IMG/VR virus record: IMGVR_UViG_3300029787_004704
Location: 1-64,000 of that record
Length of the DNA: 64,000 nucleotides
From: a virus
Reading direction: 5' to 3' (one strand)
Made by a program: the position numbers and the translations under genes. Positions within the stretch are counted from its first letter, which is position 1; each line of letters opens with the position of its first letter. This document shows positions 5,502 to 64,000 of the stretch, piece after piece. The notes under the pieces were generated by a model that did not search any database, had not been told where the DNA came from, and saw only the letters and a program-made list of their open reading frames with translations.

Positions 5502-5534
5502 AAGTGTATGTATCTAGTATGTAAATATCAACAT

Positions 5535-19340: not shown

Positions 19341-19745
19341 TTACAACCAGTACTTGACAAATAACCAACAGTATAAAAAATAACAACTGTAATGAAAACA
19401 TTGATCGATAGCAGTCAATTTCCAAAATGCTCTGTCACTGATTGTGAGATTATACTTTTTTGTAATAATGTTTTTCCGCCAGTCGATTATCAAATGTAAA
19501 ACATAATCCAACACTGCAAAAAACGGAATAGCTAACCACGGAGTTAACATACTCATATCATGTGAAATATTCATTACAATTAAAATTACTATTGATGTTC
19601 CAACAGCATGATCTAATGCATGTAAATTTTTCTTTTTAGAAAATAATTTATTTTCGTTGCCTCCGCCTTTCAATCTGCCTTGCAACATAAAATCACACAG
19701 AGCATGTTTTACCATAAGCAAATAAAAAAGGAAAGCAAACAGCAT
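19341..19745 (-). CDS. DUF3307-like membrane protein
   Basis: KHALCDFMLQ, H..DH, HLIID..K, DQCFH. Confidence 0.75.
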   Translation of the reverse strand: MLFAFLFYLLMVKHALCDFMLQGRLKGGGNENKLFSKKKNLHALDHAVGTSIVILIVMNISHDMSMLTPWLAIPFFAVLDYVLHLIIDWRKNIITKKYNLTISDRAFWKLTAIDQCFHYSCYFLYCWLFVKYWL

Positions 19746-20548
19746 TATGATCTATATAAAATTTTGTCTATACCTGCTAACACTGTAGACGAATCTGTCA
19801 TCTGGACTACAAAAGCCACACGTTCAAATACTCCTGTAAAGTTGACATATTTTATTCCTGATTGTTCAGTATAGTCCTGTCGATCAACTTCAAAGAATTC
19901 TGATTTCTTATCATCAGTTCCATATGAAGCGCCTGCGGTCATAGTGGCCATTATTTTGATGGAACCTGTAAAGTTAGTCAAATAGTATGCCGCTGTGTGC
20001 AAGCCGTCATTTGAATTTTGGTTTGGATTTGCATTTACTGATGTGGAAGAAAATTCATCATCAATTGTAGTAAATGTATTAATTTCTTGTGATGCTGTAA
20101 ATTCTGGTGATACTCCTTTTACAACTTCAAAGTTTATGCCCGCATCAAATCTTGTGTCAGCATACAGTATTTGCACAGTTGAGTCATTGCCGGTAAATCT
20201 TAATGCACCTGTATAGAATATGCCATCGAGATCTAACATGTTTGACTCTGTGATTGTAAACTTAATATGTCCTTTAGTTGCTGTACTAGAACCATCATCT
20301 TGCACAACACCAACCACAGTAATCACAAGTTTGTTATCTTCATCTGATATTTGTAGTTCACACGTAGCATCATTCACAAACTGTTTCTTCTGATCTTGAT
20401 TTTTGACCACGATAGTAAATGAATTGTCAAATTCGCTGTATAATTTTATAGGTCTTTCGTACACTTTTTCATGTCTCCGTTCGAGGCCGTCTGTGTGCAT
20501 TTGCACATCAATTTGATTGTCGAGAATGTATCCAGTAACATATTGCAT
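19745..20548 (-). CDS. putative virion structural protein (beta-sandwich)
   Basis: TATAAATA late promoter at 20560-20567; beta-rich; DST/DSST motifs. Confidence 0.55.
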   Translation of the reverse strand: MQYVTGYILDNQIDVQMHTDGLERRHEKVYERPIKLYSEFDNSFTIVVKNQDQKKQFVNDATCELQISDEDNKLVITVVGVVQDDGSSTATKGHIKFTITESNMLDLDGIFYTGALRFTGNDSTVQILYADTRFDAGINFEVVKGVSPEFTASQEINTFTTIDDEFSSTSVNANPNQNSNDGLHTAAYYLTNFTGSIKIMATMTAGASYGTDDKKSEFFEVDRQDYTEQSGIKYVNFTGVFERVAFVVQMTDSSTVLAGIDKILYRS

Positions 20549-29615: not shown

Positions 29616-30175
29616 ATTTCATAATCTTTTTCATATTTGTTTCTACACCATCCTGACATCCATAATGGTTTGCGTGTGTAGGCAGTGTCTCCTTGCCATA
29701 TCGCAACTACAGGTGGTGGGTAATTAGCAGACACATTCAATCTTGGAAGACTATCAAACTGTATGCCTGTCGCATCAAGCATCATCGATTCGATTGCTTC
29801 ATAAGGATAAACAATTAATGTTTCGTTGTCTGGCACTATATCTACGCATGTTTCATATTGCGATATGGCATGATCCAAATACAACATTGATTCTGGATTA
29901 TTAGACCATTGATTCATTTTATCGTCCAATGCCGCATGTGCCCTATGCAAATTAACATCGTATACTTGGCACAGTTCACGTTGCAGAACACTGATCAATC
30001 TTTCATATGGATTTCGCCAAACTGTATAATATGCAAAATTGCCTTTTGGATATCTATCTTTAGTAATTTCAAATCCATTTTTTTGCAACACAAATTCTAA
30101 CATAGATGATGCGTTTCGCATGATAGGAATCACAGCAATTTTTGTTTGGTTATTAATTAGATAAGATTGAGTCAT
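29564..30175 (-). CDS. sulfotransferase (Sulfotransfer_2-like)
   Basis: IPIMRNASS (5'-PSB-like), RNPYERLIS (3'-PB), Y..DY..Y. Confidence 0.7.
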   Translation of the reverse strand: MTQSYLINNQTKIAVIPIMRNASSMLEFVLQKNGFEITKDRYPKGNFAYYTVWRNPYERLISVLQRELCQVYDVNLHRAHAALDDKMNQWSNNPESMLYLDHAISQYETCVDIVPDNETLIVYPYEAIESMMLDATGIQFDSLPRLNVSANYPPPVVAIWQGDTAYTRKPLWMSGWCRNKYEKDYEIYERLLNSETPSIMVEY

Positions 30176-30983
30176 CTTTTACAAATCGATCAAGATTTTT
30201 TAGTTTTGCAACTAAATCATGAAAGTCTCCCAGATGTAATGCATTCGGACCATCTGAAGGTGCATTGTTTGGATCATCGTGTACTTCTAAAAATACTCCA
30301 GCAATAGATTGAGCCACAGCACTCATACACAAAGGTTCAACCATAGTTCTGTCACCGCCTGATGATTGTCCTTGCCCACCAGGATGTTGAACAGAATGGG
30401 TTGCATCAAATATGATTGGAGTATCATTTCTTTTATGGTGTTCAAAGCCACGCATGTCCACAATTAAGTTTCCGTATCCAAAAGATGTGCCTCTTTCAAT
30501 AATCACACTTTGGGTGTTGCCTGCCTCAACAACTTTCCTACAAATATTATTTGTGTCTGTATAAGAAAGAAATTGTCCTTTTTTCACTGTAACAATTTTT
30601 CCTGTGTTTGCGGCCGCAACAATCAAATCTGTTTGCCTACACAAGAAAGCAGGAATTTGTAATACATCTACAACTTCAGCAACAGGTTGTGCTTGATCTG
30701 GCAAATGAATATCTGTTGTCACTGAGACGTCTAATTCTTTTTTTATTGTTTGTAATATTCTTAATCCTTCATCCATGCCTATTCCACGTTTACCACTCAT
30801 TGATGATCTGTTGGCTTTGTCGAAACTTGCTTTGAACAACAATGGCACAGACAGTTTGTCGCAGGCTTCTTTTACATGTTCAGCAATCATGATAGCATGA
30901 TCACGTGATTCAATTTGGCACGGACCTGATATAATCATCAGTGGTGTGTCGTTGTAAAAATTTTCGTAATTAATTGCGGCCAT
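30153..30983 (-). CDS. kdsA: KDO8P synthase (2-dehydro-3-deoxyphosphooctonate aldolase)
   Basis: GPCQIES, KASFDKANRSS, QIPAFLCRQTDL, DATHSVQ.PGG, SDGPN. Confidence 0.96.
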   Translation of the reverse strand: MAAINYENFYNDTPLMIISGPCQIESRDHAIMIAEHVKEACDKLSVPLLFKASFDKANRSSMSGKRGIGMDEGLRILQTIKKELDVSVTTDIHLPDQAQPVAEVVDVLQIPAFLCRQTDLIVAAANTGKIVTVKKGQFLSYTDTNNICRKVVEAGNTQSVIIERGTSFGYGNLIVDMRGFEHHKRNDTPIIFDATHSVQHPGGQGQSSGGDRTMVEPLCMSAVAQSIAGVFLEVHDDPNNAPSDGPNALHLGDFHDLVAKLKNLDRFVKDDSILSN

Positions 30984-35486: not shown

Positions 35487-36030
35487 TTTTAGACCATTGA
35501 TATTTTATTTTGTCTTTGTCTTCAAATATGAAGGGAGTCTTAAGCCAAGCAATTCTTTCTTGTTCTGCTTCTTGACACAAATATTGTTTAGATTTGTCAG
35601 CACCACTAAAATATTCATATATGATCTGACCAAACCAGCCAAAGTGTGCATTGTTGTTCACGTGTATAACTTCTTGGTATTTTGTTTGTTCTGTTTGTGA
35701 TAAAGTTTGCCACCAATCTTGATTTATTTTTGGATCATAATAATTGTGCAATATATCTAGTTTGTATCCTTGTACTTCTATGCTGTTTATTTTTAGATAT
35801 CTGTGTTCACTTTCTTTGCCTCCATTATAATCTATACAAATAACATTCTTGCCACCATCAGGTACAGCATGTTCAAAACGCACCACTTCATTTGTTTTGT
35901 CTCCCGGTGAATATTCTTTTTGATGTACTGTGGTGTTGTTGAATTTTATAGTAATGGATGTGGGAGAAACATCATGGAAAATATCAAAATCAATTTTGTG
36001 ATTGTATATTAATTGGAAATTGCTGTGCAT
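35476..36030 (-). CDS. hypothetical beta-sandwich protein
   Basis: in operon, overlapping both neighbours. Confidence 0.6.
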   Translation of the reverse strand: MHSNFQLIYNHKIDFDIFHDVSPTSITIKFNNTTVHQKEYSPGDKTNEVVRFEHAVPDGGKNVICIDYNGGKESEHRYLKINSIEVQGYKLDILHNYYDPKINQDWWQTLSQTEQTKYQEVIHVNNNAHFGWFGQIIYEYFSGADKSKQYLCQEAEQERIAWLKTPFIFEDKDKIKYQWSKNEN

Positions 36031-36689
36031 TTGTTGTTAAGTTGTTCATAAGTCATCGTAGAAACATTGTCTAAATTTAAGATGTCACTAGGAATATTAC
36101 CTTCTACAAAAGTCCATTGTGTGTTTGGATTATCTTTGATAAATTTTGTAATTTGTCTACCCCATACTGTTTGGTGCACTATTGTTTCCGCACTGTCATA
36201 AGCATTGGTTCCAGTATACACATTTAAATTTGGACCATCTTCTGCACAATCAAAACCTAAACAGATCAAATTTGTATGTCCATCATGTATTGCAATATGC
36301 ATGGCGGTGGTGCCTGCTCCCATATGTGGATTCTCAGGTATCAAATGGCTACTACCTCCCAGTCTAGTCATATTGAAATGGTTGGTGTATACAATATTTT
36401 TTTCTAAGTATTCTGAATCTTTTATTTCTGTATACATTCTTCGGTCGACAACAATTAAAAAATCAGGTTCATAATCTCTGTGCAAAGCATTACAACCATA
36501 AGAGTCTTGCGGTAATTTGTATAGGTCAAATCCAATTCTTGATGGGCCGTTGCCTATGATGTAAGCATCTTTACCTGCAGGATCGTTGTTTACAGTTCGT
36601 GGCATGTATACACGCTCTTCAGTTTTCTTCCCACCCTTGATTATGATTTTGGCGATTATCTCTTCACCTTTGTATTCACTAAGTGCCAT
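36009..36689 (-). CDS. Maf/DUF115-like (sialyltransferase-like fold) putative glycosyltransferase
   Basis: IIGNGPSR, YGCNAL.RD..PD..I.VD, GAG..A, LGFD, NVY.GT..Y. Confidence 0.65.
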   Translation of the reverse strand: MALSEYKGEEIIAKIIIKGGKKTEERVYMPRTVNNDPAGKDAYIIGNGPSRIGFDLYKLPQDSYGCNALHRDYEPDFLIVVDRRMYTEIKDSEYLEKNIVYTNHFNMTRLGGSSHLIPENPHMGAGTTAMHIAIHDGHTNLICLGFDCAEDGPNLNVYTGTNAYDSAETIVHQTVWGRQITKFIKDNPNTQWTFVEGNIPSDILNLDNVSTMTYEQLNNKCTAISN

Positions 36690-37191: not shown

Positions 37192-37647
37192 TTATCCTTT
37201 CTGTCTTAACCTGATGTATCTTTTCTTGGTAACAGATTCCCACTTACCAGCTCTGGTTAATTGTTCTTTGATTATTTTTGGCACTACTTTGCCTACATCT
37301 TTGATGTGTGCATTGCCTTTGAAATTGTCCCTTACATATTTCATCAATGTATTTTTTGTGTATGTGCTATTGTTTGTTATGACTTCGTCCATTATCTTTT
37401 TTACTTGCGACAAAGTTTCATACTTGTCTCCTTTACCGTCATTCTTTCTTGCTCTAGCAAATCCTATCCAAGATGGTCTGCCTTCTTGTTCTGCTTTTAG
37501 TTGACTGATTAACAAACGTTTCACAAATAATTTTCCATCTTTGACTGCTTGTTCGTGCGTAGGAATGTCTCTATAATTGTTCCATTCTTCTGTTGTAAAT
37601 TCTGTGTCAGGTTCATCAACCCTTATATAGATATCATCTTCACTCAT
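37192..37647 (-). CDS. hypothetical basic protein
   Basis: coupled within the glycan operon. Confidence 0.6.
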   Translation of the reverse strand: MSEDDIYIRVDEPDTEFTTEEWNNYRDIPTHEQAVKDGKLFVKRLLISQLKAEQEGRPSWIGFARARKNDGKGDKYETLSQVKKIMDEVITNNSTYTKNTLMKYVRDNFKGNAHIKDVGKVVPKIIKEQLTRAGKWESVTKKRYIRLRQKG

Positions 37648-38339
37648 TGCCAGTGCTCCATTATTGTTGGATCATGTTTTATATCCCCAGGATCTGGTTT
37701 GCCGTGAAACACAGCTACACAACAGTCTTTAGGAATTGGTGCATTCCGTATTTTGTCGTTTGAACGCCTTTGATCTTCTTTCATTAATCCGATTTCCCAT
37801 TTGTAACTCATAATCCAATCATGTGGCCACATACAAGAGTGCGGACGTTCTGCTGTAACATAGTTTTGATCTCCTTGGAATGAACTTTGTATTTTTGATG
37901 GATTATCTTTGAACTTGGCCCACATGTCATCTTCATTGCCTGCAAAAAATTTCATCACAGATGAATTACGCACTTGGTAATCTTTGATTCTGCATCTGTT
38001 GAAGTCTTGTATGATTACAAATGCATCACCTTCAAACTCCCACAAGTGATCAATATTCTTTAGTATAACAACATCTAAGTCCATGAAAATTACTGTTCCT
38101 TCTAACCCAATGTCATTTCTGAACATATGCACTTTGTTCCACCAGGACTTGTATAACGGTGCAACAACAATTTGTTTGATCTCGGGATTGAACCCTGATT
38201 TGTTTGAATCTGTAATCACATGGAATCGCACATCAGTTGAATTTCTTTGAACCATATTGTACAGTGTGTTTACATAACTTGGTGGATACTTGTCACCTGT
38301 GCATACACAAACAAAACTTTTTATCATATGTGCGACCAT
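37644..38339 (-). CDS. GT-A fold glycosyltransferase (GT8-like)
   Basis: G.KY...YV..L, WWNK, FMDLDVVI, NSSVM, GDQ, FHGKPDP. Confidence 0.8.
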   Translation of the reverse strand: MVAHMIKSFVCVCTGDKYPPSYVNTLYNMVQRNSTDVRFHVITDSNKSGFNPEIKQIVVAPLYKSWWNKVHMFRNDIGLEGTVIFMDLDVVILKNIDHLWEFEGDAFVIIQDFNRCRIKDYQVRNSSVMKFFAGNEDDMWAKFKDNPSKIQSSFQGDQNYVTAERPHSCMWPHDWIMSYKWEIGLMKEDQRRSNDKIRNAPIPKDCCVAVFHGKPDPGDIKHDPTIMEHWQ

Positions 38340-40627: not shown

Positions 40628-41307
40628 TGCATTGCCTTTCTTAATCTTTTAACATCATCTGGAAAGAAACATTCTTTAGTTTTGTTATATAACCATTCGT
40701 CTCTTAATTGCACTGATGATGTTCTTATTCTTTTTGCTGTTGAGTCTTGTGTAATTTTTTTTACTTTAATCATAACATCTTCTAAAAATATATATCTGTT
40801 GACTGCCACAGCAAGATCTTTTGTGTAAGAATCAAGACACCAATGGTGGAATTGTGGCGGCCAAAAATAGCCTAGTGCATCACGCCACTGTCTTGCAATA
40901 GTAGGATGTGGACAAGTTTGATATTCAAGTCCATGCTTTTTGCCAGTTGCTGTGCCAATTGCAAATATTCCATCTGGGTGTCGAGACAGTTGATCTAAAA
41001 ATATTTGATCCCAAGAAGTTGTCACAAACTGTGCATCGTCACCTACCATTTTGTACATCTTACTGTGTTCGCTTTCTGCCAACACATTCCAACTCATTAC
41101 TGTGCTTCTGTCAGGGCCTATGTCAACATGACGCAGATTATGTTTTTTATATTCACCTAATGTAGAATCGTCATCATTGAGATAAAATTTTACTTTAATT
41201 TTGTCAGGCCACTTGGCTGTGTCATATGCAGACTGTTCCATGCGTTTTGCAAGATCGGGACGTCCTCTGCTGGGGCAACATATGGTTATATTAGTTTCTT
41301 TGTCCAT
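40624..41307 (-). CDS. GT2-like glycosyltransferase
   Basis: CPSRGRP, WN.LA, GDD..F.T..WD, HW..D. Confidence 0.75.
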   Translation of the reverse strand: MDKETNITICCPSRGRPDLAKRMEQSAYDTAKWPDKIKVKFYLNDDDSTLGEYKKHNLRHVDIGPDRSTVMSWNVLAESEHSKMYKMVGDDAQFVTTSWDQIFLDQLSRHPDGIFAIGTATGKKHGLEYQTCPHPTIARQWRDALGYFWPPQFHHWCLDSYTKDLAVAVNRYIFLEDVMIKVKKITQDSTAKRIRTSSVQLRDEWLYNKTKECFFPDDVKRLRKAMQ

Positions 41308-42290
41308 GTGGTTGGCGTATGCTCGTTATCAATTTCTATAGGCAAGGAGTAATTGAATTTTCTTATACCTCTTGTCCTAATGTATTGTAACGTATTTTGT
41401 ATGCCTTCTGCAATAGAAACTTTGGTTTTGTAATTGAAGAATTTTCTTATCTTGTCAGATGAACATGTTGCATATTTTACTTCTTTGGGTCTGCCCGGCA
41501 TGTATTCGTGTTCTCCATTGAAACCAGTTGCATTGGCAGTAAGGTTGGCCAGTTCATTTATAGTAACATAATCCTCATCTGGCCCTATGTTAAAAATTTG
41601 GCCAACTGCAGACTCTTCAAAACAAACTTTATCAAACACCTGTAAAGTGTCATCTATATATGAAAAACATCTTTTCTGTTCACCATCGCCATATATTATG
41701 CAAGGTTTTCCCTGTAAGTTTCTGTGTAAGAATATTGATACAACATTTCTAAATGGATCATCATACACCTGATTAGGCCCATAGATATTATGAGGCACAA
41801 CAATAGTCCAGTCTATTCCGTTTACATCGCACAAACATTTGACAGTGTCCTCGGCCGCAACTTTGGCAATGCCATATGGGTCTTCTGGTTCTGGTTTCAT
41901 ATCTTCTGTAAACGGTGGTTCTTGCTTTCCGTAACGAGCCATGGAACTCATGTATACAAAACGGTTAATCTTGTGCTTTATGGATGCGGATAATACGTTT
42001 ACAGTAGCATCAAATGTGTTTCGTGTGACTAGTACCGGCGACACAACACTTAAGCCTTCGTATGCTGTGCAGGCCGCATGAATTACAAGTTCAAATTTTT
42101 CTTTAGCAAACAACTGGTCGAGTGCTGATTGATCACAGCAATCTATTCGTAGTGTTTGAACTTCTGTGAGGTTGTCATCATATCCGCCCACTCCGTTGTC
42201 TATGCCGATCACTGTGTGGCCTTGATTATGATATCTTTTAGCAAGATGTGAACCTACAAAACCTAGCGAGCCTGTAACTAAAATTTTCAT
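41286..42290 (-). CDS. NAD-dependent epimerase/dehydratase
   Basis: TGSLGFVGSH, SSMARYG, YGIAK, HNIYGP. Confidence 0.92.
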   Translation of the reverse strand: MKILVTGSLGFVGSHLAKRYHNQGHTVIGIDNGVGGYDDNLTEVQTLRIDCCDQSALDQLFAKEKFELVIHAACTAYEGLSVVSPVLVTRNTFDATVNVLSASIKHKINRFVYMSSMARYGKQEPPFTEDMKPEPEDPYGIAKVAAEDTVKCLCDVNGIDWTIVVPHNIYGPNQVYDDPFRNVVSIFLHRNLQGKPCIIYGDGEQKRCFSYIDDTLQVFDKVCFEESAVGQIFNIGPDEDYVTINELANLTANATGFNGEHEYMPGRPKEVKYATCSSDKIRKFFNYKTKVSIAEGIQNTLQYIRTRGIRKFNYSLPIEIDNEHTPTTWTKKLI

Positions 42291-42832
42291 TCGTACACTC
42301 CTATTGAGGCAACCTGTTGATTAGCAGGACCAAGTATTTCTTCAACTGCTTGTTTGACTCCTGTTGCTCTGTGGAAAAAATCATGAAACAATATTTTTCC
42401 GTCTGAAAGAATGTGTATATTTTTGGTCAATAGTTTCATCCATTCATATGTGTGATTGGCATCAATAAAAATTAAGTCATAAAATTCAGGTAATGGTTTG
42501 TTGTTCAATTCCATCACATAGTTGATTGCATCGGCAGTAACATAATTGATATTGACGTCTACTTTTATATTTTGTTTTGTTTGTAAAATGTTTTCTTCAA
42601 ACACATCTAAAGTTGTGATTGAACCTTTATTTCCTGCGTCGTATTTTGCTTGAGCTATTATGCTTGTTGACAAACCGTGATAAGATCCTAGTTCCAAAAT
42701 GTTATGTGAATTATATGCACACTCATATAGATAATGTGCTTCTATAGGTTGCAACCAACCTTCTATATCTGATTTTATTACACCATTTTCAGTTGGCAAA
42801 TGCAACAGACTTTCGTGGTACTCATTTAACAT
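42287..42832 (-). CDS. class I SAM methyltransferase (Methyltransf_24-like)
   Basis: LELGSYHGLS, DLIFIDANHTYE, FHD, GVKQAV. Confidence 0.85.
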   Translation of the reverse strand: MLNEYHESLLHLPTENGVIKSDIEGWLQPIEAHYLYECAYNSHNILELGSYHGLSTSIIAQAKYDAGNKGSITTLDVFEENILQTKQNIKVDVNINYVTADAINYVMELNNKPLPEFYDLIFIDANHTYEWMKLLTKNIHILSDGKILFHDFFHRATGVKQAVEEILGPANQQVASIGVYE

Positions 42833-43454
42833 AGATACAGTCTCTGGTCACTTTCACTGCTCTTTTGTATCCAAGTTCTACTAGCAAATCATGACTGTCG
42901 TTCTTTGTGTACCCGTATGCTTCTGAATTCAACACACATCGTTCTATTATGATCACAGGTGAACAACGCTCTAAAGTTTTCCTTGCTCCATTTAGAACAG
43001 GAATTTCAAGTCCTTCTACGTCTATCTTTAATACATCTATTGTGTCGTAGTTGTGTTCGTCCATTGTTTTCAACACAATGTCGCCTTCATCTCCTGGCCA
43101 CACTCTTGTAGATCCTAGATGTTGCTCGATTGCAACAGCAAGTTTGCCTTTGCCTGGTTTGTCTGCAAGGCCATATTCATGCAGTGTAATATTTGATTTG
43201 CTTTCAGTGTTGATTTTAAAACATTCAATATTGTAATCAGCAGGTTCAAATGCTGTAACTTGTTCGAAGATGTCAGCATAATAGTTTGCCCATCTTCCGA
43301 CATTACCGCCAACATCTATCATGTGCGATCTTCCTTGAGTCAGTTTCAATACTTGTTCATGAATTTTGTTGTCGTGTTCTTTGACATTGCCGCCTACGTG
43401 GTGGACTGGATCGTCACCATCTGGAATATAATAACCGTCTTCTAGAAGTTTCAT
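42822..43454 (-). CDS. FkbM-family methyltransferase
   Basis: IDVGGNVG, AFEP, DVLKIDVEGLE. Confidence 0.88.
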   Translation of the reverse strand: MKLLEDGYYIPDGDDPVHHVGGNVKEHDNKIHEQVLKLTQGRSHMIDVGGNVGRWANYYADIFEQVTAFEPADYNIECFKINTESKSNITLHEYGLADKPGKGKLAVAIEQHLGSTRVWPGDEGDIVLKTMDEHNYDTIDVLKIDVEGLEIPVLNGARKTLERCSPVIIIERCVLNSEAYGYTKNDSHDLLVELGYKRAVKVTRDCIYVK

Positions 43455-44173
43455 CTAAGTTTTGTATCCATCACATTTACTTTTGGTTCCCAACCTAAAG
43501 CTCTCAATTTCGATGATGGTAAAACATTAGATTCTAATTCAAAATCTTCTCCGTCTGTTACTGGCACGTCGAAGCCATTTTTTGCAACCAGTTGATCCAC
43601 TTTGAATGCAATTCCACAACCACATTCAAACACACCTTTTTCATCTGGATTGTCTATTATGGTTTGTATAGCATTCACAACATCTGCAACATTTATAAAA
43701 TCTCTAGTGTGTGTAGTTGCATATTTTACTATGCCCAATTTGATCTTTGATATCAGCATAGTGTCTCTTGCTCCATCTCCCCACACAGTTGAAAAACGTA
43801 ATCCAACTGATTTTTTAGGAGCCATAAATTCATCCACATACTTGGATAGTGCATATGGATTTCTATGCCATTCTAAACAAGCAGATGACGATGCGTAAAT
43901 TACTCTGATGTTGTGTTCATCACACTGCTCAAACACTTTCCTACATTTAACCACATTTTCGTTCCAATACAAATTAGGATTTTTAAAACTTTCTCGTATG
44001 TCTGCTTTGGCAGCTAGATGTATGCAAAGATCTGATTTAGGATCAATGTCAAAGTTGGCAATGTCTTTGTTGATTAACAAATCCCAACAGTCTACTGTAT
44101 GTCCATTTGCTTCTAAATGATTACGCAGATGTGTGCCAATAAAACCATGTGATCCTGTAAGTGTGATGTGCAT
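43451..44173 (-). CDS. NAD-dependent epimerase/dehydratase (short)
   Basis: TGSHGFIG, HLAA, YASSS, YALSK, RDFI.V.D. Confidence 0.88.
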   Translation of the reverse strand: MHITLTGSHGFIGTHLRNHLEANGHTVDCWDLLINKDIANFDIDPKSDLCIHLAAKADIRESFKNPNLYWNENVVKCRKVFEQCDEHNIRVIYASSSACLEWHRNPYALSKYVDEFMAPKKSVGLRFSTVWGDGARDTMLISKIKLGIVKYATTHTRDFINVADVVNAIQTIIDNPDEKGVFECGCGIAFKVDQLVAKNGFDVPVTDGEDFELESNVLPSSKLRALGWEPKVNVMDTKLR

Positions 44174-44177
44174 ACGT

Positions 44178-44810
44178 CTATATATAGAAGTTTCTGTTGG
44201 ACGTTAATGATTCTTGATTGTTCACTTTGACTGCTCTTGGAGTCACCACTTGTATGTTACAGTATAGATCTTTCACAAACATGTCAGCGGCAGTCAGACC
44301 TTCTTCATATGCTCCACGTATTAACCGTTCAGCAGTTTTTGGTTTGATTACGTATCCATAGGTGCCTTGTAATTGTTGTTGTCCTTTGCGATAATGTTCT
44401 AGTTTTTGTATGCTAGGTTCTTGTCCTAGATCAGGATCAGGCTCGACAAATCGGTGTTTGTCCAAATGTAGTAGTTCATCAAACGGTGTTTTGTATGAGT
44501 CTGATACCACAATAGAATCGTGTTCAAGTATGACCACTGTTTCATCTAGTTCAACACATTTTTTCCACATTTCCAAATGTGAAATCATGCATCCTCTGAC
44601 ACCACCTTTATTCCATTTTATTTTGTATAACTTTGGCCCGGGAAAATATGGTTGTAAATTTTCTCGTTTGATATATTCATCTGCACGTGAAGGTGTGTAC
44701 CCTTCAAACATCTCAGCGTCTAGGCCATGTGCTTTAGCACTGACCATTGCGTCAATAGCTGGTTGATGTGTGCTTTCAACTTCTCTTAAAAATAATACAA
44801 ACGCTTTCAT
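44178..44810 (-). CDS. glycosyltransferase family 25
   Basis: GCMISH..MW, ILEHD, GTYGYVI.P..A. Confidence 0.82.
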   Translation of the reverse strand: MKAFVLFLREVESTHQPAIDAMVSAKAHGLDAEMFEGYTPSRADEYIKRENLQPYFPGPKLYKIKWNKGGVRGCMISHLEMWKKCVELDETVVILEHDSIVVSDSYKTPFDELLHLDKHRFVEPDPDLGQEPSIQKLEHYRKGQQQLQGTYGYVIKPKTAERLIRGAYEEGLTAADMFVKDLYCNIQVVTPRAVKVNNQESLTSNRNFYI

Positions 44811-46721: not shown

Positions 46722-46738
46722 GTGTAAGTATCCTGTAT

Positions 46739-53310: not shown

Positions 53311-54171
53311 ATGGCAGGAAGAAGAGCACAGTGGAGACTCGCATCAGCACAAGCGGCTGTTCGTGGAGAAAAAACAGTATCCTTGTATGGCAAGACAGGT
53401 GAAATATCTGCATGGCTCAATCCTGAACAACTTAAAGACCCTAAAAAAACTCTTGCAGAACTTGAAAAAATTACAAAAAAATCTCACAAAGCAGAGATAC
53501 CAAAATCAGAACCTATACCACCCAAAGACACTGCATACAAACCAGACGGTGAAGTGTGTTTCCTAATAGCCAACGGTGAATCAAGACGTGCATTTGATCT
53601 GAACAAACTTAAAGGCAAAGGATACATTGTAGGAATGAATGTGTTGCCTGTGGTAGAAGATTTTTGGCCTGACATGTTGGTCAGTGTGGATATTGCTACG
53701 GTCAAATGGTTGAGTGAAAAAGATGTGCCAGCAAAACTTGAACATTGGAGTTATCCGCGAGGCGGAGTAAAAGATCCTAGGATCAAAAGAATAGCAAAAG
53801 ACTGGGGTTGGTCATCAGGCCCAACAGCAACAAGAATAGCACTTGAATACAAACGGTTTAAAACACTGTACATCCTAGGCATGGATTTTTTCGGCATAAC
53901 TGCTACAGGCGAAGTTGATGAGAAAAAAGGCGACAAATTAAACAACATGTACAAAGGACAAGAAAGATACCGCAAAGCCAACTCAAGCAGAACCTATTTT
54001 GGCAACTGGCAGAATCAAATGGAAACTAACACCAAGAATCATCCTGATGCTAAATTTTACCATGTAGTGCTGGATAATCAAAAATCACCCAATAAACTAG
54101 CACAAAAGTCCAATTGGATAGACATAAATTATAGTATATTTGAAGAACATCTTCAAAAAATGTCAAAATGA
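53311..54171 (+). CDS. Maf/DUF115-like putative glycosyltransferase within the head module
   Basis: IANGESR..FDL, GMN, PD.LVSVD, WSSGPTA, ILGMDF, NNMYKG...Y. Confidence 0.65.
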   Translation: MAGRRAQWRLASAQAAVRGEKTVSLYGKTGEISAWLNPEQLKDPKKTLAELEKITKKSHKAEIPKSEPIPPKDTAYKPDGEVCFLIANGESRRAFDLNKLKGKGYIVGMNVLPVVEDFWPDMLVSVDIATVKWLSEKDVPAKLEHWSYPRGGVKDPRIKRIAKDWGWSSGPTATRIALEYKRFKTLYILGMDFFGITATGEVDEKKGDKLNNMYKGQERYRKANSSRTYFGNWQNQMETNTKNHPDAKFYHVVLDNQKSPNKLAQKSNWIDINYSIFEEHLQKMSK

Positions 54172-58127: not shown

Positions 58128-60536
58128 ATGAAGATTATCCAAGGACAGGAAAAAGTAATTCTACGAGCAGTTTCGCCGGACGGGGGAACTACATCAGGAG
58201 ATTTGTTAACAGCTTTTGCAGAAGATAGTGGCACAACAGGTATTAGAATTTCCAATCTAGAAGTAGAAACACAAACAACACTTAACAGCACAACAACCAC
58301 AATTGAAGATTCGTTTTTAGAAGTAAACAGAAATAATTCAACAGCAGACAGTGAAGATTCAGGAATATTTTTCAATAGAGGATCTGTTGATCATGCACTA
58401 TTATATTGGGACGCAGGTGATGATAATTTTGTAGTAGGGACTACAACACATGAATCAACAGTAACAGCAATTTCAAATGTTACTCTCGGACAACTCAAAG
58501 TTGCCACAACCCCAAGTCATGCAAATCATGCCGCAAGTAAAAGTTATGTTGATTCAAAAACAATCACAGTAGCAGGAGACAACAGTGCGGCTATCACAAT
58601 AGATTTTGATGATGCAGAATTAGTATTATCAGGAGGAACTAGTATAACCACTGCCACCACAGCAGGAGGTAACGCTTTTGAGATAAGTGTTGATGCCGCA
58701 ATGACAGGAATCAACTCAATAACATCAGCCTCGGCTGAAAATATTACATTAGTAGCACAAAGTAATTTGATTGTGATCGACGATACAATCACATTTAATT
58801 CACAATTAGCATCAGATCCAAGTGCGGCAAGCATTGCCAAACTGTATGCTAAATCTCCTTCAATAGGCGGCACAGGATTATACGTAATTCATAGTGGTGT
58901 CAATGGTGGCGAATCGACAGAGATTATGGGTCAAACAAGTAACAATCTAGTTGTGTTTGGAGATGACTCAACTACAATGGAAATTTTGATTCCAGATGTT
59001 CCTTTGACTGTAAGTGGAGGTAACAGCATAACAACTTCTACTTCAAGTACACAAACTTTGACAGTAGCATTAGACAATCAGATTTTTGTAAATGAAATAT
59101 CATCAAACGACTCAACAGGCGTTACTCTCAAGGATGATTTATTATTAGCAGGAACGTTGAGAGCCGAAGATTCTACTAACATAAGTGTTGATGGAGGTAT
59201 GCAGATTAGTGGTGTGGTTACTGGATTAACTATAGAAGCAACAGGTGACACAGCGGCCAATGACAATGCCGCAATGGGATATACAGCCGCAGAAGGTTTG
59301 ATATTGACTGGACAAGGATCTACAAATGATGTAACAATTAAAAATGATGCTGATGCTGATGTAATTGAAATACCAACTGGTACAACCAATGTAACTATTG
59401 CAGGAACACTAGGAACAGGTGGATCTATTACTGCTACAGGCTCATTCATAATTGGCTCAGCTGACATGAACGAGGCCGACCTTGAAAAATTAGACGGAAT
59501 CACAAACGGTACAGTAGCGGCATCCAAAGCAGTTGTTGTAGATGCAGACAAAGATGCATCAGGATTTAGAAACGTTACAGCAACTGGTTCATTCATAATT
59601 GGCTCAGCTGATATGAACGAAACTGATCTAGAAAAACTAGACGGAATCACAAACGGCACAGTGGCGGCAAACAAAGCAGTTGTAGTTGATGCCTCGAAAG
59701 ACATCGGCACATTTGGAACAATTACTGGCAGTGCTTTAGTAGTTGAAACTATATCTTCAGCAGACTCAACCAGTGTATTTTTTAATGATGGGATTACCAT
59801 AGCAGGCTCGATCAAAGCAGATGATTCTGCTACAATTAATATTGATGATGGACTTGACGTCGAAGGTGCTGTAACTTTAGGTTCAACAGTATCGCTAGGT
59901 GACACTATGAGTATACCTGATTCTGTCAAAATATTGTTTGGTACAGGTAATGATTTAGAAATTTTCCATGATGGTACTGATAGTGTTATTAAAGATGGCG
60001 GAGCTGGCTCACTTGAAATTAGAGCCACAGATTTAAAAATTAACAACAGTGCTAACAATCACAATATGATCAAAGCAATTGATGGTGGTACTGTTGAACT
60101 TTATCATAATAATGTTAAAAAAATAGAAACCACTGCTACTGGCGTCACAGTGACAGGCGGAATAACATCTTCAGGGGCAACCATAATGACACCAGTAGAT
60201 GATTTAGCAACATCAACCACTGCTTTGTCATTGACTGCAACAGTTCATTCACTTGCAGTAGGTGAAGCCAATTACACTTTGGCCGCAGGTACAGAAGGAC
60301 AAATTATGCACTTTGTGATTGCAGGCGGCGACTCTGTGATAGGTAATGTTGCAAACACAACTGTGACAATATCTCAGGTTAGAGACCCAGATGATGGAGA
60401 TGTGTTGGCCACTTATGCATGGAGTCCATTTATAGGAAATCAAGCAGGCGATTCAACAACACCTAAACGTACACTGGCAACCTGTGTGTTTGCCAATGGT
60501 GCTTGGAACCTAGATCAATATAACGATATCACATAA
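58128..60536 (+). CDS. repeat-rich virion structural / tail fibre-like protein
   Basis: TAAATA 6 nt before ATG; T/S/G/D-rich beta repeats, 49-aa tandem duplication. Confidence 0.75.
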   Translation: MKIIQGQEKVILRAVSPDGGTTSGDLLTAFAEDSGTTGIRISNLEVETQTTLNSTTTTIEDSFLEVNRNNSTADSEDSGIFFNRGSVDHALLYWDAGDDNFVVGTTTHESTVTAISNVTLGQLKVATTPSHANHAASKSYVDSKTITVAGDNSAAITIDFDDAELVLSGGTSITTATTAGGNAFEISVDAAMTGINSITSASAENITLVAQSNLIVIDDTITFNSQLASDPSAASIAKLYAKSPSIGGTGLYVIHSGVNGGESTEIMGQTSNNLVVFGDDSTTMEILIPDVPLTVSGGNSITTSTSSTQTLTVALDNQIFVNEISSNDSTGVTLKDDLLLAGTLRAEDSTNISVDGGMQISGVVTGLTIEATGDTAANDNAAMGYTAAEGLILTGQGSTNDVTIKNDADADVIEIPTGTTNVTIAGTLGTGGSITATGSFIIGSADMNEADLEKLDGITNGTVAASKAVVVDADKDASGFRNVTATGSFIIGSADMNETDLEKLDGITNGTVAANKAVVVDASKDIGTFGTITGSALVVETISSADSTSVFFNDGITIAGSIKADDSATINIDDGLDVEGAVTLGSTVSLGDTMSIPDSVKILFGTGNDLEIFHDGTDSVIKDGGAGSLEIRATDLKINNSANNHNMIKAIDGGTVELYHNNVKKIETTATGVTVTGGITSSGATIMTPVDDLATSTTALSLTATVHSLAVGEANYTLAAGTEGQIMHFVIAGGDSVIGNVANTTVTISQVRDPDDGDVLATYAWSPFIGNQAGDSTTPKRTLATCVFANGAWNLDQYNDIT
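59431..59703 (+). repeat. 147-bp tandem duplication (49 aa)
   Basis: TCATTCATAATTGGCTCAG at 59442 and 59589; encodes GSFIIGSADMNE.DLEKLDGITNGTVAA.KAVVVDA. Confidence 0.9.
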
Positions 60537-60594
60537 TATCCCCCATAATAGATAACCCGGCCAACGAGTTGCTTTGGATTAAATACACTCATAC

Positions 60595-63500
60595 ATGACC
60601 AAACAACGTATTCAAATAGGTGCTATTAACTCTGGATCCGGCGATACCTTAAGAGCCGCGATGATAAAAATCAATAACAACTTTGATGAGTTGTATGATT
60701 TACAGGGACAAGACTCTAGTGGTCAGGGCATTGATATAAATGGAAACACAATCACATCAAATTTTGAAGACACTGACATAACATTATCACCAAACGGCAC
60801 AGGTGACATTGTAATGGATGGTGATCTTGTTGTTACTGTTATAAAATCAGATGATTCTACAGAAGTTAAAATAAGTGATTCATTGAACGTCACAGGCACA
60901 GTGACAGCAACAGCATTTGTTGGTGATGGATCAGGACTTACAGGAGTAAGTGGTAGTGGTGGTGGCGGCGGTGACTCTACAGAAGTTTACACAAATATTT
61001 TAAGATCAAATGACTCCACTGCTATCCAAGTTGCAGACAATTTAGTACCAACAGCAGATGACACTTTCAGTTTAGGTACAGCAGACAAAAAATGGTCAGC
61101 AGTGCATGTTTCCGGAGGCACTATATTCTTAGGAAACTTACAGATCAAAGATTCAGGATCAAATTCATTACAAATTTTAAGGTCAGACGGGTCTACTACG
61201 GCGGCAGTTGAATCTACAAGCACAACATTGAATGTTGTAGGTGATGACTCCACTGACATGGAAATTGTAGTTGGCACAGATAGATTACATTTCCAAGGTG
61301 GCACAAACATTGAAACATCCACAGACAGTGGTGCACAACTTACAATATCTACAAGTAACACTCCAACATTCAGTGGCACAGTCACAGCAGGTGGATTAAC
61401 AATTGGATCAGCAGTAATTAATGAAGCAGAACTAGAAACTATTGATGGTGTCACAGCAGGCACTGTGGCAGCTTCCAAAGCAGTGATTGTTGATGCCAAC
61501 AAAGACGCGGCATCATTTAGAAACATTACTGCCACTGGTGCAGTAACAGGTGGCTCTTTTGTAATTGGATCTGCAGACATTAGTGAAGCAGATCTAGAAA
61601 AACTAGATGGAATAACAAATGGAACTGCCGCGGCAAATAAAGCAATAGTAGCTGATGGCAACATTGATGTTACTGCAATTAGAAATCTTACACTAACAGG
61701 AAACATACAGGTTGGTGGCGACATGACTGTGAGTGGCACAACTACATCAGTCAACACAACAAATTTAGAAATATCAGATGCACTATTAGAACTAAACAAA
61801 AATAACTCAGGTGGTGCAGATACTGATGCTGGACTATTAATACAAAGAGGATCTGCAGGCAACAATGCCGCGTTTTATTGGAATGAAGGTGCTGACAAAT
61901 TCAAAGCAGTATTAACCACATCGGCAGCCACAGCAAGTGCAGTCACTGACTCAAGCACAGCAACCATTGTTGCAAATCTTGAAGGAGCAGTAACAGGCAA
62001 TGCCGACACAGCAACAGCTTTAGCCACAGCAAGGAATATTGGTGGTGTTAGTTTTGACGGTACTGGAAATATAAATTTACCTGGTGTAAACACTGCCGGT
62101 GACCAAGACACAAGTGGAACTGCCGCAATAGCAACTAAGATTATAGTAACTGATAACGAAAGTACAAATGAAAATAATGTAATTTTGTTTGCGTCTAGCG
62201 TAGGTGATTCGAGTACTGCAAGTGGAAGTGGCGTAGAATCTGATGGTAACATGACATACAATCCCAGCACAGGCAAAATCACTGCTACTGGATTTATAGG
62301 TGCTGTAACTGGTGATGTTACAGGTGATGTTACAGGTAATGCCGACACAGCAACAGCTTTAGCCACAGCAAGAACAATAGGTGGTGTGTCATTTGATGGC
62401 ACAGGAAATATTAACTTGCCAGGAGTTAACACTGCTGGTAACCAAAATACAAGTGGAACAGCCGCGATAGCAACCCTTGTAACAGTAACTGACAACGAAA
62501 ACACAAATGAAGAAAATGTTGTTACATTCGTTGCTGGTGCAGATGCAGATGGTGGCAATGTTGGCCTTGAGTCAGATGGAAACTTTACATATAATCCAAG
62601 CACAGGGGCAGTAACAGCAACAAAATTCAAAGGTGATGGATCAGAACTTACTGGAATAAGCGGTGGTGGTGGATCAAGCACATTGAACGTTGTTGGTGAT
62701 GATTCAACTGACATGGAAATTACGCTTGGAACAGATAGATTATATTTCCAAGGTGGCACAAATATTTCAACGTCAACAGACAGTGGGGCACAACTAACAA
62801 TTACTGTTGCTGATGCTCCAACATTTAGTGGTGCAGTCACTGCCGCTGGATTTACAATAGGCAGTGCCGCTATTAACGAATCGGAACTTGAAACAATTGA
62901 TGGTGTCACAGCAGGTACTGTGGCCGCAAGTAAAGCTGTCGTAGTTGACTCGAACAAAGATGCAACAGGATTTAGAAACGTTACAGGCACAGGAGATGTC
63001 GAAGGTGCAAGTTTAACTGTTACAAGTGGCGTTGCCATTACAGCATCAAGTGGCGATGTTACTGTTGCGAATGCAACATCAAATAAAGATTTAATATTCA
63101 CAGTAAATGATGGTGGCTCTGCTACTGAGGTAATGAGATTAGATGGTGATGTGTCAGCATTATTAGTGGCGTCTGGGAAAGAATTGAGATTTGCAGACTC
63201 CGGAGAAAAAATATCAGGTGACGGCACTGACTTAACCATTGCATCAGGAGCCAAAATAAACCTAACAGCAACATCGGATGTTGTTGTTCCAGCTAACGTA
63301 GGAATTACATTTGGCACTGGCGAAAAAATTGAAGGCGACAACACAGACTTAACTATTACTTCAGGTGCTAAAATTAATTTGGCAGCTACTTCAGATGTAC
63401 ATATTCCAAATGATGTTGGTATTGTGTTTGGTGGAGATTCAGAAAAAATTGAAGGAGATGGAACGGACTTAGTCATATCTGCAAATAATTTAACAGTTGA

Positions 63501-64000
63501 CGCGGCCGCTGATATAATTTTAGACGCAGGTGGCAATGACTTCCAATTCAAAGCAGGTGGCACTCACATATTAAGCATTGTGAATTCATCTAGTGATGTC
63601 ATAATCAAACCTATCGCTGATGCAAAAGATATAATATTGCAACAAAGAGATGGCACAGAAGTTGCTCGCGTTGAAGACAACGGAACATTCAATATTGTCA
63701 CAGACAAATTAGCAATAAATGGCACAGCGGTTACATCAACTGCCGCAGAGTTAAATTTTGTTGATGGCAGTACAGCAGGCACTGTGGTGGCATCTAAAGC
63801 AGTGGTTGTCGATTCAAACAAAGATGCTGGAGACTTCCGTAACTTAACTGGAGTAACTTTAAAAGGAACAACTTCATTACAAACACCATTGATTGAATTC
63901 ACTGATGGCGACAATGCAATTACTATTGCAAATGGAGGTGGTATTACTGCTAATACAAGTTTAACATTGGCAAGTGGTGCAACTGTTACAGCAATACTTG
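60595..64000 (+). CDS. large tail fibre/baseplate-attached protein, truncated by window end (not in ORF track)
   Basis: MTKQRIQIGAINSGSGDTLRAAMIKINNNFDELY N-terminal anchor motif; TAAATA at 60580; no stop seen before 64000. Confidence 0.8.
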   Translation, partial: MTKQRIQIGAINSGSGDTLRAAMIKINNNFDELYDLQGQDSSGQGIDINGNTITSNFEDTDITLSPNGTGDIVMDGDLVVTVIKSDDSTEVKISDSLNVTGTVTATAFVGDGSGLTGVSGSGGGGGDSTEVYTNILRSNDSTAIQVADNLVPTADDTFSLGTADKKWSAVHVSGGTIFLGNLQIKDSGSNSLQILRSDGSTTAAVESTSTTLNVVGDDSTDMEIVVGTDRLHFQGGTNIETSTDSGAQLTISTSNTPTFSGTVTAGGLTIGSAVINEAELETIDGVTAGTVAASKAVIVDANKDAASFRNITATGAVTGGSFVIGSADISEADLEKLDGITNGTAAANKAIVADGNIDVTAIRNLTLTGNIQVGGDMTVSGTTTSVNTTNLEISDALLELNKNNSGGADTDAGLLIQRGSAGNNAAFYWNEGADKFKAVLTTSAATASAVTDSSTATIVANLEGAVTGNADTATALATARNIGGVSFDGTGNINLPGVNTAGDQDTSGTAAIATKIIVTDNESTNENNVILFASSVGDSSTASGSGVESDGNMTYNPSTGKITATGFIGAVTGDVTGDVTGNADTATALATARTIGGVSFDGTGNINLPGVNTAGNQNTSGTAAIATLVTVTDNENTNEENVVTFVAGADADGGNVGLESDGNFTYNPSTGAVTATKFKGDGSELTGISGGGGSSTLNVVGDDSTDMEITLGTDRLYFQGGTNISTSTDSGAQLTITVADAPTFSGAVTAAGFTIGSAAINESELETIDGVTAGTVAASKAVVVDSNKDATGFRNVTGTGDVEGASLTVTSGVAITASSGDVTVANATSNKDLIFTVNDGGSATEVMRLDGDVSALLVASGKELRFADSGEKISGDGTDLTIASGAKINLTATSDVVVPANVGITFGTGEKIEGDNTDLTITSGAKINLAATSDVHIPNDVGIVFGGDSEKIEGDGTDLVISANNLTVDAAADIILDAGGNDFQFKAGGTHILSIVNSSSDVIIKPIADAKDIILQQRDGTEVARVEDNGTFNIVTDKLAINGTAVTSTAAELNFVDGSTAGTVVASKAVVVDSNKDAGDFRNLTGVTLKGTTSLQTPLIEFTDGDNAITIANGGGITANTSLTLASGATVTAIL
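61225..62990 (+). repeat. ~310-bp module repeated at 1455-bp spacing (61225-61535 and 62680-62990)
   Basis: TLNVVGDDSTDMEI..GTDRL.FQGGTNI.TSTDSGAQLTI...INE.ELETIDGVTAGTVAASKAV in both copies. Confidence 0.85.
61990..62629 (+). repeat. 339-bp tandem duplication (113 aa)
   Basis: GCCGACACAGCAACAGCTTTAGCCACAGCAAG at 62002 and 62341. Confidence 0.9.

What the first reader, a model, noticed from the sequence alone, without database searches (positions are those of the whole stretch)
58128..64000. Recurrent D-S-[S/T] motif in structural proteins: candidate sequon of a virion O-glycosylation system
Seen: DST five times in the 802-aa protein (GDDSTT, SNDSTG, AEDSTN, SADSTS, AGDSTT); about eight in the first ~720 aa of the 60595 protein (QDSSG, DDSTE, GDSTE, NDSTA, DDSTD twice, TDSST, GDSST); five in 12659-13585; two in 19745-20548. 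They occur in unrelated contexts and proteins, and one 113-aa repeat copy has GDSSTA where the other has DADGGN. Established: D-(S/T)-x is the Bacteroidota O-glycosylation sequon, and some phages glycosylate their virions. Inference: with over ten GT-like genes, two Maf-like enzymes and many tailoring enzymes, the phage may encode a sequon-directed glycan coat for shielding, receptor mimicry or stability.
Basis: partly seen in the sequence, partly recalled or inferred. Interest (0 to 1): 0.82.

Follow-up and report, generated by a model that had tools for sequence, protein, structure and literature searches.

The report
Conserved D-S-S/T motif on phage tail proteins
An uncultured marine jumbo phage carries a short Asp-Ser-Ser/Thr motif, conserved in surface loops and turns of several unrelated tail proteins, alongside a Maf-like sugar transferase in its virion gene module; this makes phage-encoded glycosylation of the tail plausible and testable, but unproven.

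Summary
D-S-[ST] is about 3-fold over composition in the two fibres (21 seen, 6.7 expected). Shuffling within 15- to 60-residue blocks does not remove the excess.

Two cautions apply. The fibres are internally repetitive, so DST ranks only 67th of 330 tripeptides. In addition, 16 of the 21 fibre copies are followed by the same alternating-hydrophobic strand pattern, and most sit in a few recurring strand-turn-strand units.

The stronger evidence lies outside the fibres:
- In the gp15-like tail terminator, all four copies lie in a clade-specific insertion that holds 0 to 4 copies across relatives.
- In the tail sheath, all three copies lie in variable loops: one is an 8-residue clade-specific insertion, one a variable-length loop, one beside a 3-residue insertion.
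- In the 12659-13585 protein family, D and S are more conserved than their flanks.
- A related 331-kb jumbo phage has no excess (0.88x), even in its giant fibres.

The 53311-54171 protein, in the head module, folds like the Maf catalytic domain (Z 14). It was found in clade members but not in that control phage.

The Bacteroidota sequon as defined is not enriched, and only four GT-like genes were confirmed, not more than ten.

Verdict: a selected short motif. It is most likely an acceptor site for cytoplasmic O-glycosylation (about 0.4), with a purely structural turn as a close rival.

The parts
58128..60536 (+). Fibre protein of 802 aa with 5 DST plus one DSA. Four DST sites and the DSA site are followed by the x-phi-x-phi strand pattern; three DST and the DSA sit in the unit phi-x-[SA]-x-D-S-T-x-phi-x-phi-x-D-G, and one in a VVFGDDSTTMEI unit.
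   Evidence: phrog_19195 virion structural protein; 72 metagenome homologues in which these units recur
60595..64000 (+). N-terminal 1135 aa of a 3015-aa giant tail-fibre protein that continues to contig position 69642. It has 16 DS[ST] in all. It contains a 39-aa tandem repeat, GEKIEG-D-x-T-DLTITSG, in which x is S in 2 copies, G in 5, N in 5 and D in 2.
12659..13585 (+). Protein of 308 aa with no Pfam or PHROG family and only weak CBM-like leads. It has 5 DS[ST]. In 30 homologues the sites are conserved islands; YDSTE is kept in all 29 other family members in the alignment.
19745..20548 (-). Virion structural protein of 267 aa with 2 DS[ST] against 0.32 expected (p about 0.04).
53311..54171 (+). 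Maf/GT42-fold transferase of 286 aa, lying between the portal and prohead protease genes. Residues 77-286 form the catalytic domain. Residues 1-76 form a mostly helical N-terminal extension.
   Evidence: Z 14.0 to Maf 5mu5; family profile E about 1e-6 to CstII
36009..36689 (-). Paralogue of the Maf-like gene, lying in the sugar cluster (28% identity, E 9e-10). Its PF01973 match is weak (18.5 bits; curated cut-off 34.6).
30153..30983 (-). Member of the DAHP_synth_1 family, read here as KdsA-type Kdo-8-phosphate synthase. It is a possible source of an ulosonic-acid donor.
   Evidence: E 1.2e-65
37644..38339 (-). GT8-like glycosyltransferase.
   Evidence: phrog_1962, E 1.3e-22; PF01501, weak
41286..44810 (-). 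Sugar-tailoring block: NAD-dependent epimerase/dehydratase, two methyltransferases (one of FkbM type), a short epimerase, and a GT25 glycosyltransferase.
10731..11891 (-). Dehydrogenase of the UDP-glucose/GDP-mannose dehydrogenase family.

Best explanation
D-S-[S/T] (with A occasionally third) is a short motif under selection in one clade of uncultured marine jumbo myophages. It sits on loops and turns of tail-surface proteins: the tail sheath, the gp15-like tail terminator and two fibres. It also occurs in one uncharacterised protein with weak CBM-like leads.

The most likely function is an acceptor site for cytoplasmic O-glycosylation of the Ser at position 2. The candidate enzyme is the phage's minimal Maf/GT42-fold transferase, encoded in the head/virion module at 53311-54171, with a paralogue in the sugar cluster. 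The first sugar may be a CMP-activated ulosonic acid such as Kdo, since the cluster encodes KdsA. The GT25, the GT8-like enzyme, the epimerases and the methyltransferases could extend or tailor the glycan.

Shown here: the motif statistics, its conservation, its clade specificity, and the enzyme's fold. Inferred: that the enzyme acts on these proteins, the identity of the donor, and that any sugar is attached at all.
For: - Enrichment survives composition and local-composition controls.
- It is directional and Ser-specific. In loci from clade relatives, DS[ST] is 2.98x expectation, the reverse [ST]SD is 1.03x and DT[ST] is 0.62x.
- In three unrelated families D is the most enriched residue before S[ST]: 3.6x, 7.1x and 5.9x.
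- The four copies in the gp15-like protein lie in a 29-aa insertion that is absent from Phosso and PA5oct. Across relatives the insertion holds 0, 1, 2, 3 or 4 copies with variable spacers.
- The three sheath copies are kept in 80-100% of clade relatives, against 56-79% identity for the flanks. All lie in variable loops: an 8-residue clade-specific insertion, a variable-length loop, and a site next to a 3-residue insertion. One site shows only S-to-T exchange.
- In the 12659-13585 family, D and S identity is 0.90-1.00 at the three best-kept sites, against 0.55-0.63 for the flanks.
- A 93%-complete related jumbo phage has 48 copies against 54.5 expected, and its five fibre-like proteins of more than 2000 aa are at expectation. 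No Maf-like gene was found in it. Clade members G001, G004 and G015 carry one.
- The Maf-like model has pLDDT 91.8. Its best match is the Maf catalytic domain (5mu5, Z 14.0), ahead of CstII (Z 10.6). The family profile hits GT42 sialyltransferases at E about 1e-6.
- Maf enzymes O-glycosylate Ser/Thr, and one of them accepts CMP-Kdo (PMC11339370).
- Phage-encoded virion glycosylation has a precedent in mycobacteriophages (Freeman 2023, as cited in PMC11256854).
Against: - There is no biochemical evidence.
- Sixteen of the 21 fibre copies are followed by the same strand pattern, and most sit in recurring strand-turn-strand units. In the 39-aa repeat the Ser is replaced by G, N or D in 12 of 14 copies, as expected for a simple turn.
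- DST is not an outlier among fibre tripeptides.
- Known Maf enzymes have no defined sequon (PMC11339370).
- Pelagiphage HTVC008M encodes a distant homologue of the Maf-like protein but shows no DS[ST] excess in its virion proteins.
- The co-occurrence of the gene and the motif rests on one clade against two distant phages, so it is confounded by phylogeny.
- The transferase could act on host LPS or capsule instead.
- No KdsB was found in the 108-kb fragment.
- The major capsid protein has no copies.
Confidence: 0.4

Rival explanations
1. The motif is purely structural. D-S-[ST] forms an Asx/ST-type turn that caps short beta-strands. It recurs because fibre repeat units were duplicated, and because new loops in the sheath and gp15 adopted the same favourable turn. 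Nothing is attached to it.
For: - Sixteen of the 21 fibre copies are followed by the x-phi-x-phi strand pattern, and most fall into a few recurring units; the best-defined is phi-x-[SA]-x-DS[ST]-x-phi-x-phi-x-[DEN].
- These units recur and are conserved across 72 fibre homologues.
- In the 39-aa repeat the middle residue is S, G, N or D.
- The low-confidence AF2 model places the motifs between short strands.
- Many other tripeptides are equally enriched in these repetitive proteins.
Against: - This does not explain why the same tripeptide is enriched 3- to 7-fold in unrelated families of one clade.
- It does not explain why D and S are better conserved than their flanks inside variable, gapped loops.
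- It does not explain why Thr at position 2 is depleted.
- Giant fibre-like proteins of a related jumbo phage show no excess.
Confidence: 0.35
2. The motif is functional but is not a glycosylation site. It could be the target of another modification, such as phosphorylation, or a binding element for an ion, a host surface polymer or an assembly factor. The Maf-like and sugar genes would then modify the host envelope instead.
For: The conservation and clade specificity are the same as for the best explanation. KdsA, GT25 and sugar-tailoring genes fit host LPS remodelling equally well. HTVC008M has a distant homologue of the Maf-like protein without the motif.
Against: No kinase or other candidate writer or reader was found among the roughly 40 window proteins scanned. 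The best structural match of 53311-54171 is Maf, a protein O-glycosyltransferase, and the gene sits in the head/virion module.
Confidence: 0.17
3. The recurrence is chance, or a by-product of D/S/T-rich composition.
For: The proteins are rich in D, S and T. The four non-fibre proteins grouped were picked after their motif counts had been seen.
Against: Global and block shuffles reject this explanation for the fibres, the gp15-like protein and 12659-13585. The reverse motif and DT[ST] are not enriched. The sites are conserved across homologues.
Confidence: 0.03

Closest known systems
Maf flagellin O-glycosyltransferases (for example Magnetospirillum Maf, PDB 5mu5; Clostridium botulinum CbMaf)
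   Same: The catalytic-domain fold matches (Z 14.0, 176 residues aligned). These are cytoplasmic enzymes that put CMP-activated ulosonic acids on surface-exposed Ser/Thr of a filament protein before assembly. CbMaf accepts CMP-Kdo (PMC11339370).
   Different: The phage protein is 286 aa against about 630 aa. It lacks Maf's N- and C-terminal domains and has its own 76-residue N-terminal extension. Its Pfam MptE-like score is below the curated cut-off. Maf enzymes have no known sequon, whereas here a tripeptide is conserved. The proposed acceptors are phage tail proteins, not flagellin.
Bacteroidota general O-glycosylation at D(S/T)(A/I/L/V/M/T)
   Same: It uses an Asp followed by a hydroxyl residue. 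DST and DSA fit the published motif (PMC5420450).
   Different: The motif as defined is not enriched. Thr at position 2 and hydrophobic residues at position 3 are depleted, and DSS does not fit. [quoted passage not shown] By my own knowledge the glycan is transferred en bloc in the periplasm, whereas virion proteins are cytoplasmic. The host phylum is unknown.
Mycobacteriophage virion glycosylation (Che8 and Rita; Freeman et al. 2023, as cited in PMC11256854)
   Same: Phage-encoded glycosyltransferases covalently decorate virion proteins and form a glycan shield.
   Different: Those are actinobacteriophages, and major capsid proteins are the reported targets (PMC11256854). Here the capsid protein has no motif, the targets would be tail proteins, and the candidate enzyme is of the Maf/GT42 type.
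AIDA-I/TibA beta-helix repeats heptosylated by Aah/TibC, and staphylococcal Ser-Asp repeats GlcNAc-ylated by SdgA/SdgB (from my own knowledge, not checked here)
   Same: Cytoplasmic O-glycosyltransferases modify Ser residues in strand-loop-strand repeat units or next to Asp. A structural repeat and an acceptor site can therefore be the same element.
   Different: The enzyme families and sugars differ. No homologues of these enzymes were detected in the window.

Membership tests
Bacteroidota O-glycosylation sequon D(S/T)(A/I/L/V/M/T) | The three-residue motif as defined is over-represented in, or marks, the target proteins. | tested here: not met
   the fibres have 26 against 35.8 expected, DTT 0 against 5.6, DT[AILVM] 7 against 15.6, and DS[AILVM] 5 against 11. 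Only the DS[ST] subset is enriched.
Bacteroidota O-glycosylation sequon D(S/T)(A/I/L/V/M/T) | The substrates are exported to the cell envelope. | not tested
   No signal-peptide predictor was run. Virion proteins of tailed phages assemble in the cytoplasm (established knowledge).
Bacteroidota O-glycosylation sequon D(S/T)(A/I/L/V/M/T) | The host belongs to Bacteroidota. | tested here: inconclusive
   The DctP gene gave no close genomic relative. Fibre modules are shared with pelagiphages, cyanophages and roseophages. The capsid protein is closest to jumbo phages of Proteobacteria.
Maf (motility-associated factor) protein glycosyltransferases | A central sialyltransferase-like catalytic domain. 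| tested here: met
   Z 14.0, rmsd 3.6 A over 176 residues to 5mu5 residues 269-516, with CstII next at Z 10.6; family profile against CstII/Cst-I at E about 1e-6.
Maf (motility-associated factor) protein glycosyltransferases | A Pfam PF01973 (MptE-like, formerly MAF_flag10) match above the curated cut-off. | tested here: not met
   no match for 53311-54171, and 18.5 bits against a 34.6 cut-off for 36009-36689; 7 of 62 family members match, best E 3.6e-4.
Maf (motility-associated factor) protein glycosyltransferases | N- and C-terminal accessory domains flanking the catalytic domain. | tested here: not met
   The protein is 286 aa and only residues 77-286 align to the 632-aa Maf chain.
Maf (motility-associated factor) protein glycosyltransferases | Transfers a CMP-ulosonic acid to Ser/Thr of a protein. 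| not testable with these tools
   This needs an enzyme assay or glycoproteomics.
Phage fibre structural repeat (strand-turn-strand unit) | The motif copies share an extended repeat context that is conserved in homologues. | tested here: met
   16 of the 21 fibre copies share the downstream strand pattern, and the same units recur in 72 homologues. This is not met for the gp15, sheath and 12659-13585 sites.

The most novel reading that the evidence does not exclude
A marine jumbo phage glycosylates its own tail (sheath, terminator and fibres) at a defined D-S-[S/T] sequon in the cytoplasm. It does so with a minimal Maf-type transferase and an ulosonic acid such as Kdo. This would be the first sequon known for a Maf-family enzyme and the first virion glycosylation system in a phage of Gram-negative bacteria.
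Probability: 0.3. Interest if true: 0.85.

Novelty: new variant of a known kind. Interest (0 to 1): 0.62.

Why it matters
Virion glycosylation is so far documented mainly in mycobacteriophages, and Maf-type enzymes have no known acceptor rule. A conserved tripeptide on tail-surface loops, paired with a minimal Maf-fold enzyme in the virion module, would give a compact system of enzyme plus sequon. Such a system could be tested by co-expression in E. coli. If it works, it would be useful for glyco-engineering. It would also bear on how abundant marine jumbo phages shield or tune their tails. If the motif turns out to be only structural, it still defines a widespread and undescribed fibre repeat unit.

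Tried and rejected
- Composition and local composition as explanations were rejected.
- The canonical Bacteroidota sequon was tested and is not enriched.
- A PDB sequence search of both fibres found no relatives.
- An AF2 monomer model of the 802-aa fibre was too poor to use for exposure (mean pLDDT 44).
- tblastn of the motif-bearing fibre segment against cultured phages gave no match. Fibres of cultured marine phages (S-CAM9, S-PRM1, CRP-13, HTVC120P, HTVC115P) share other modules and show at most a weak DS[ST] excess.
Long metagenome contigs carrying distant fibre homologues could therefore not be inspected.
- IMG/VR contigs with Mtd_N-type DS[ST] fibres were jumbo-phage fragments. One belongs to the same clade; four lack the head module. 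They gave no independent test.
- HTVC008M, used as an independent co-occurrence test, was negative.
- My recollection that the Tannerella nonulosonic-acid transferases are Maf-like was wrong. The paper describes them as GT-B/TagB-like.
- The count of 'over ten GT-like genes' could not be reproduced with Pfam or PHROGs on about 40 window proteins.
Full report
**What the DNA is.** The window is the first 64 kb of a single 107,868-bp virus contig. It encodes T4-type portal, prohead protease, scaffold, major capsid, gp15-like terminator and sheath proteins. The capsid protein is 65-69% identical to those of jumbo phages such as Phosso, PA5oct and Vibrio 2.275.O. CheckV rates the contig 26% complete, and relatives of 70-108 kb are rated 19-29% complete. 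It is therefore a fragment of a jumbo myophage, by extrapolation of roughly 400 kb. Its fibre modules are shared with pelagiphages, cyanophages and roseophages, and its relatives are IMG/VR metagenome contigs. The host is unknown.

**Checking the observation.** The 60595 ORF continues to contig position 69642 (3015 aa) and has 16 copies. Per-protein shuffles give 21 observed against 6.7 expected for the two fibres (z 5.8). The rest of the proteome has 9 against 12.1. Shuffling within 60-, 30- or 15-residue blocks leaves the excess in the fibres, in 12659-13585 and in the gp15-like protein, so local composition is not the cause.

The fibres have 26 against 35.8 expected, DTT is 0 against 5.6, and hydrophobic third residues are depleted. 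That sequon is confirmed as D(S/T)(A/I/L/V/M/T) in PMC5420450.

**Cautions for the fibres.** Both fibres are internally repetitive. DST ranks 67th of 330 tripeptides with at least four occurrences, and 50 tripeptides are at least 3-fold enriched. Sixteen of the 21 fibre copies are followed by the same x-phi-x-phi strand pattern, and most fall into a few recurring units:
- phi-x-[SA]-x-D-S-[ST]-x-phi-x-phi-x-[DEN]
- VVGDDSTxMEI
- AVTDSS
- a 39-aa tandem repeat, GEKIEG-D-x-T-DLTITSG, in which x is S in 2 copies, G in 5, N in 5 and D in 2. That spectrum is what a plain turn would show.

The first two units recur and are conserved in 72 metagenomic fibre homologues, some of which carry Mtd_N. In those homologues DS[ST] is 340 against 93 expected. 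A monomer AF2 model of the 802-aa fibre was poor (pLDDT 44). It only suggests that the motifs lie between short strands. From the fibres alone, a structural repeat would be an adequate explanation.

**Evidence from outside the fibres.** This is what changed my reading.
- *gp15-like terminator (contig 70077-71570).* Its four copies all lie in a 29-aa insertion that is absent from the Phosso and PA5oct homologues. Across graded relatives the insertion holds 4, 3, 2, 1 or 0 copies. The spacers vary while the DS[ST] units are kept.
- *Tail sheath (contig 74655-78098).* All three copies are kept in 80-100% of clade relatives, against 56-79% identity for the flanks. They lie in variable loops: one is an 8-residue insertion absent from relatives at 41-48% identity, one a variable-length loop, and one is next to a 3-residue insertion. 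One site shows only S-to-T exchange.
- *The 12659-13585 family.* All 30 homologues have 3-7 copies against 0.4-1.1 expected. YDSTE is kept in all 29 other family members in the alignment, and two further sites are conserved islands in a gapped linker. D and S identity is 0.90-1.00 against 0.55-0.63 for the flanks.
- *Specificity across families.* D is the most enriched residue before S[ST] in the fibre family (3.6x), the close gp15 set (7.1x) and the 12659 family (5.9x), but not in distant gp15.
- *Clade loci as a whole.* DS[ST] is 2.98x expectation, the reverse motif 1.03x and DT[ST] 0.62x. The excess is confined to gp15, the sheath and the fibres. Neighbouring virion genes and the capsid protein have none or fewer than expected.
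- *Control phage.* A 93%-complete related jumbo phage of 331 kb shows 48 against 54.5 proteome-wide. Its five fibre-like proteins of more than 2000 aa are at expectation.

**The candidate enzyme.** The gene at 53311-54171 lies between the portal and the prohead protease. It is a paralogue of 36009-36689 in the sugar cluster (28% identity, E 9e-10). Pfam gives only a sub-threshold MptE-like hit for the paralogue. However, a 62-member family profile matches the GT42 sialyltransferases CstII and Cst-I at E about 1e-6. The AF2 model is confident (pLDDT 91.8). Its best structural match is the Maf catalytic domain (5mu5, Z 14.0), ahead of CstII at Z 10.6. Residues 1-76 are a separate, mostly helical N-terminal extension, and the accessory domains of Maf are missing.

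The gene is present in clade members G001, G004 and G015. It was not found in two distant jumbo relatives, 93% and 77% complete, whose gp15 homologues carry no DS[ST] in the C-terminal 120 residues. Maf enzymes O-glycosylate exposed Ser/Thr of flagellin, have no known sequon, and one of them accepts CMP-Kdo (PMC11339370).

The window also encodes the following sugar genes:
- a KdsA-type synthase
- two epimerase/dehydratases
- two methyltransferases
- a UDP-glucose/GDP-mannose dehydrogenase
- a GT25
- a GT8-like enzyme

That makes four GT-like genes supported, not more than ten. No KdsB was found in the fragment.

**Weighing the explanations.** The motif is real, directional, Ser-specific, clade-specific and better conserved than its surroundings in unrelated proteins. 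That argues for a selected short linear motif rather than chance. It also argues against a single inherited structural repeat. A clade-specific Maf-fold enzyme in the virion module makes cytoplasmic O-glycosylation the best single mechanism.

Several points count against it:
- Nothing shows attachment of a sugar.
- Much of the fibre signal is structural inheritance.
- The co-occurrence of gene and motif is phylogenetically confounded.
- HTVC008M has a distant homologue of the Maf-like protein without the motif.
- The sugar genes could serve host envelope remodelling.

I put glycosylation at about 0.4, a purely structural turn at 0.35, another function at 0.17 and chance at 0.03.

**Comparison with known systems.** The proposal works like Maf-type flagellin glycosylation, and like the virion glycosylation of mycobacteriophages (Freeman 2023, as cited in PMC11256854). 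It is not a member of the Bacteroidota sequon system. The protein shares the Maf catalytic fold but fails the Pfam cut-off and lacks the accessory domains. If the reading is true, this is a new variant of a known kind.

**Limits.** No multimer modelling was available. The phage is uncultured and only about a quarter of its genome is in hand.

Noticed in passing
whole contig (window 1-64000 and contig 64001-107868): The contig is rated 26% complete by CheckV. Its capsid protein is 65-69% identical to those of jumbo phages (Phosso, PA5oct). It is therefore a fragment of a marine jumbo myophage, by extrapolation of roughly 400 kb, with many IMG/VR relatives whose capsid proteins are 94-100% identical.
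   Followed up: partly
window 53311-53540 (residues 1-76 of the Maf-like protein): The head-module Maf-like protein has a confidently modelled, mostly helical N-terminal extension that its ~200-aa relatives lack. It might target the enzyme to the prohead or to a virion protein. This was not tested.
   Followed up: no
L001:595-9642 (contig 60595-69642), residues about 860-2600: The giant fibre contains many copies of a ~39-aa tandem unit, GITFGTGEKIEG-D-x-T-DLTITSGAKINLxATSD. It has no match among PDB sequences.
   Followed up: partly
window 3953-4885: The phage encodes a solute-binding protein of a TRAP transporter (DctP family, E 1.6e-40). No close relative was found in the genome collection.
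   Followed up: partly
window 13900-15591: A 563-aa ORF carries the NTPase and finger domains of bacterial DNA polymerase III alpha. This looks like a truncated or split replicative polymerase.
   Followed up: no
window 6131-8047: A 638-aa radical SAM protein with a B12-binding domain lies next to a weak aspartyl/asparaginyl beta-hydroxylase-like ORF (5508-6122).
   Followed up: no
window 44807-45220: A SegE-type GIY-YIG homing endonuclease gene lies next to the GT25 gene, at the edge of the sugar cluster.
   Followed up: no
window 46044-46814: A protein with weak matches to ATE_C and an acetyltransferase (GNAT) domain (E 1e-5), as another first-stage note also flagged.
   Followed up: no
window 12659-13585: The feature search in the ESM Atlas gives only weak leads (0.83-0.85) to CBM35, CBM6 and fn3-type beta-sandwich proteins. 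Whether this protein is part of the virion is unknown.
   Followed up: partly
L007 (Pelagibacter phage HTVC120P gp40, gp42) and L005 (S-PRM1 fibre): The widespread fibre motif (M)RIDSSGNVGIG contains DSS. This gives cultured marine phage fibres a small DS[ST] excess that is unrelated to the units described here.
   Followed up: no
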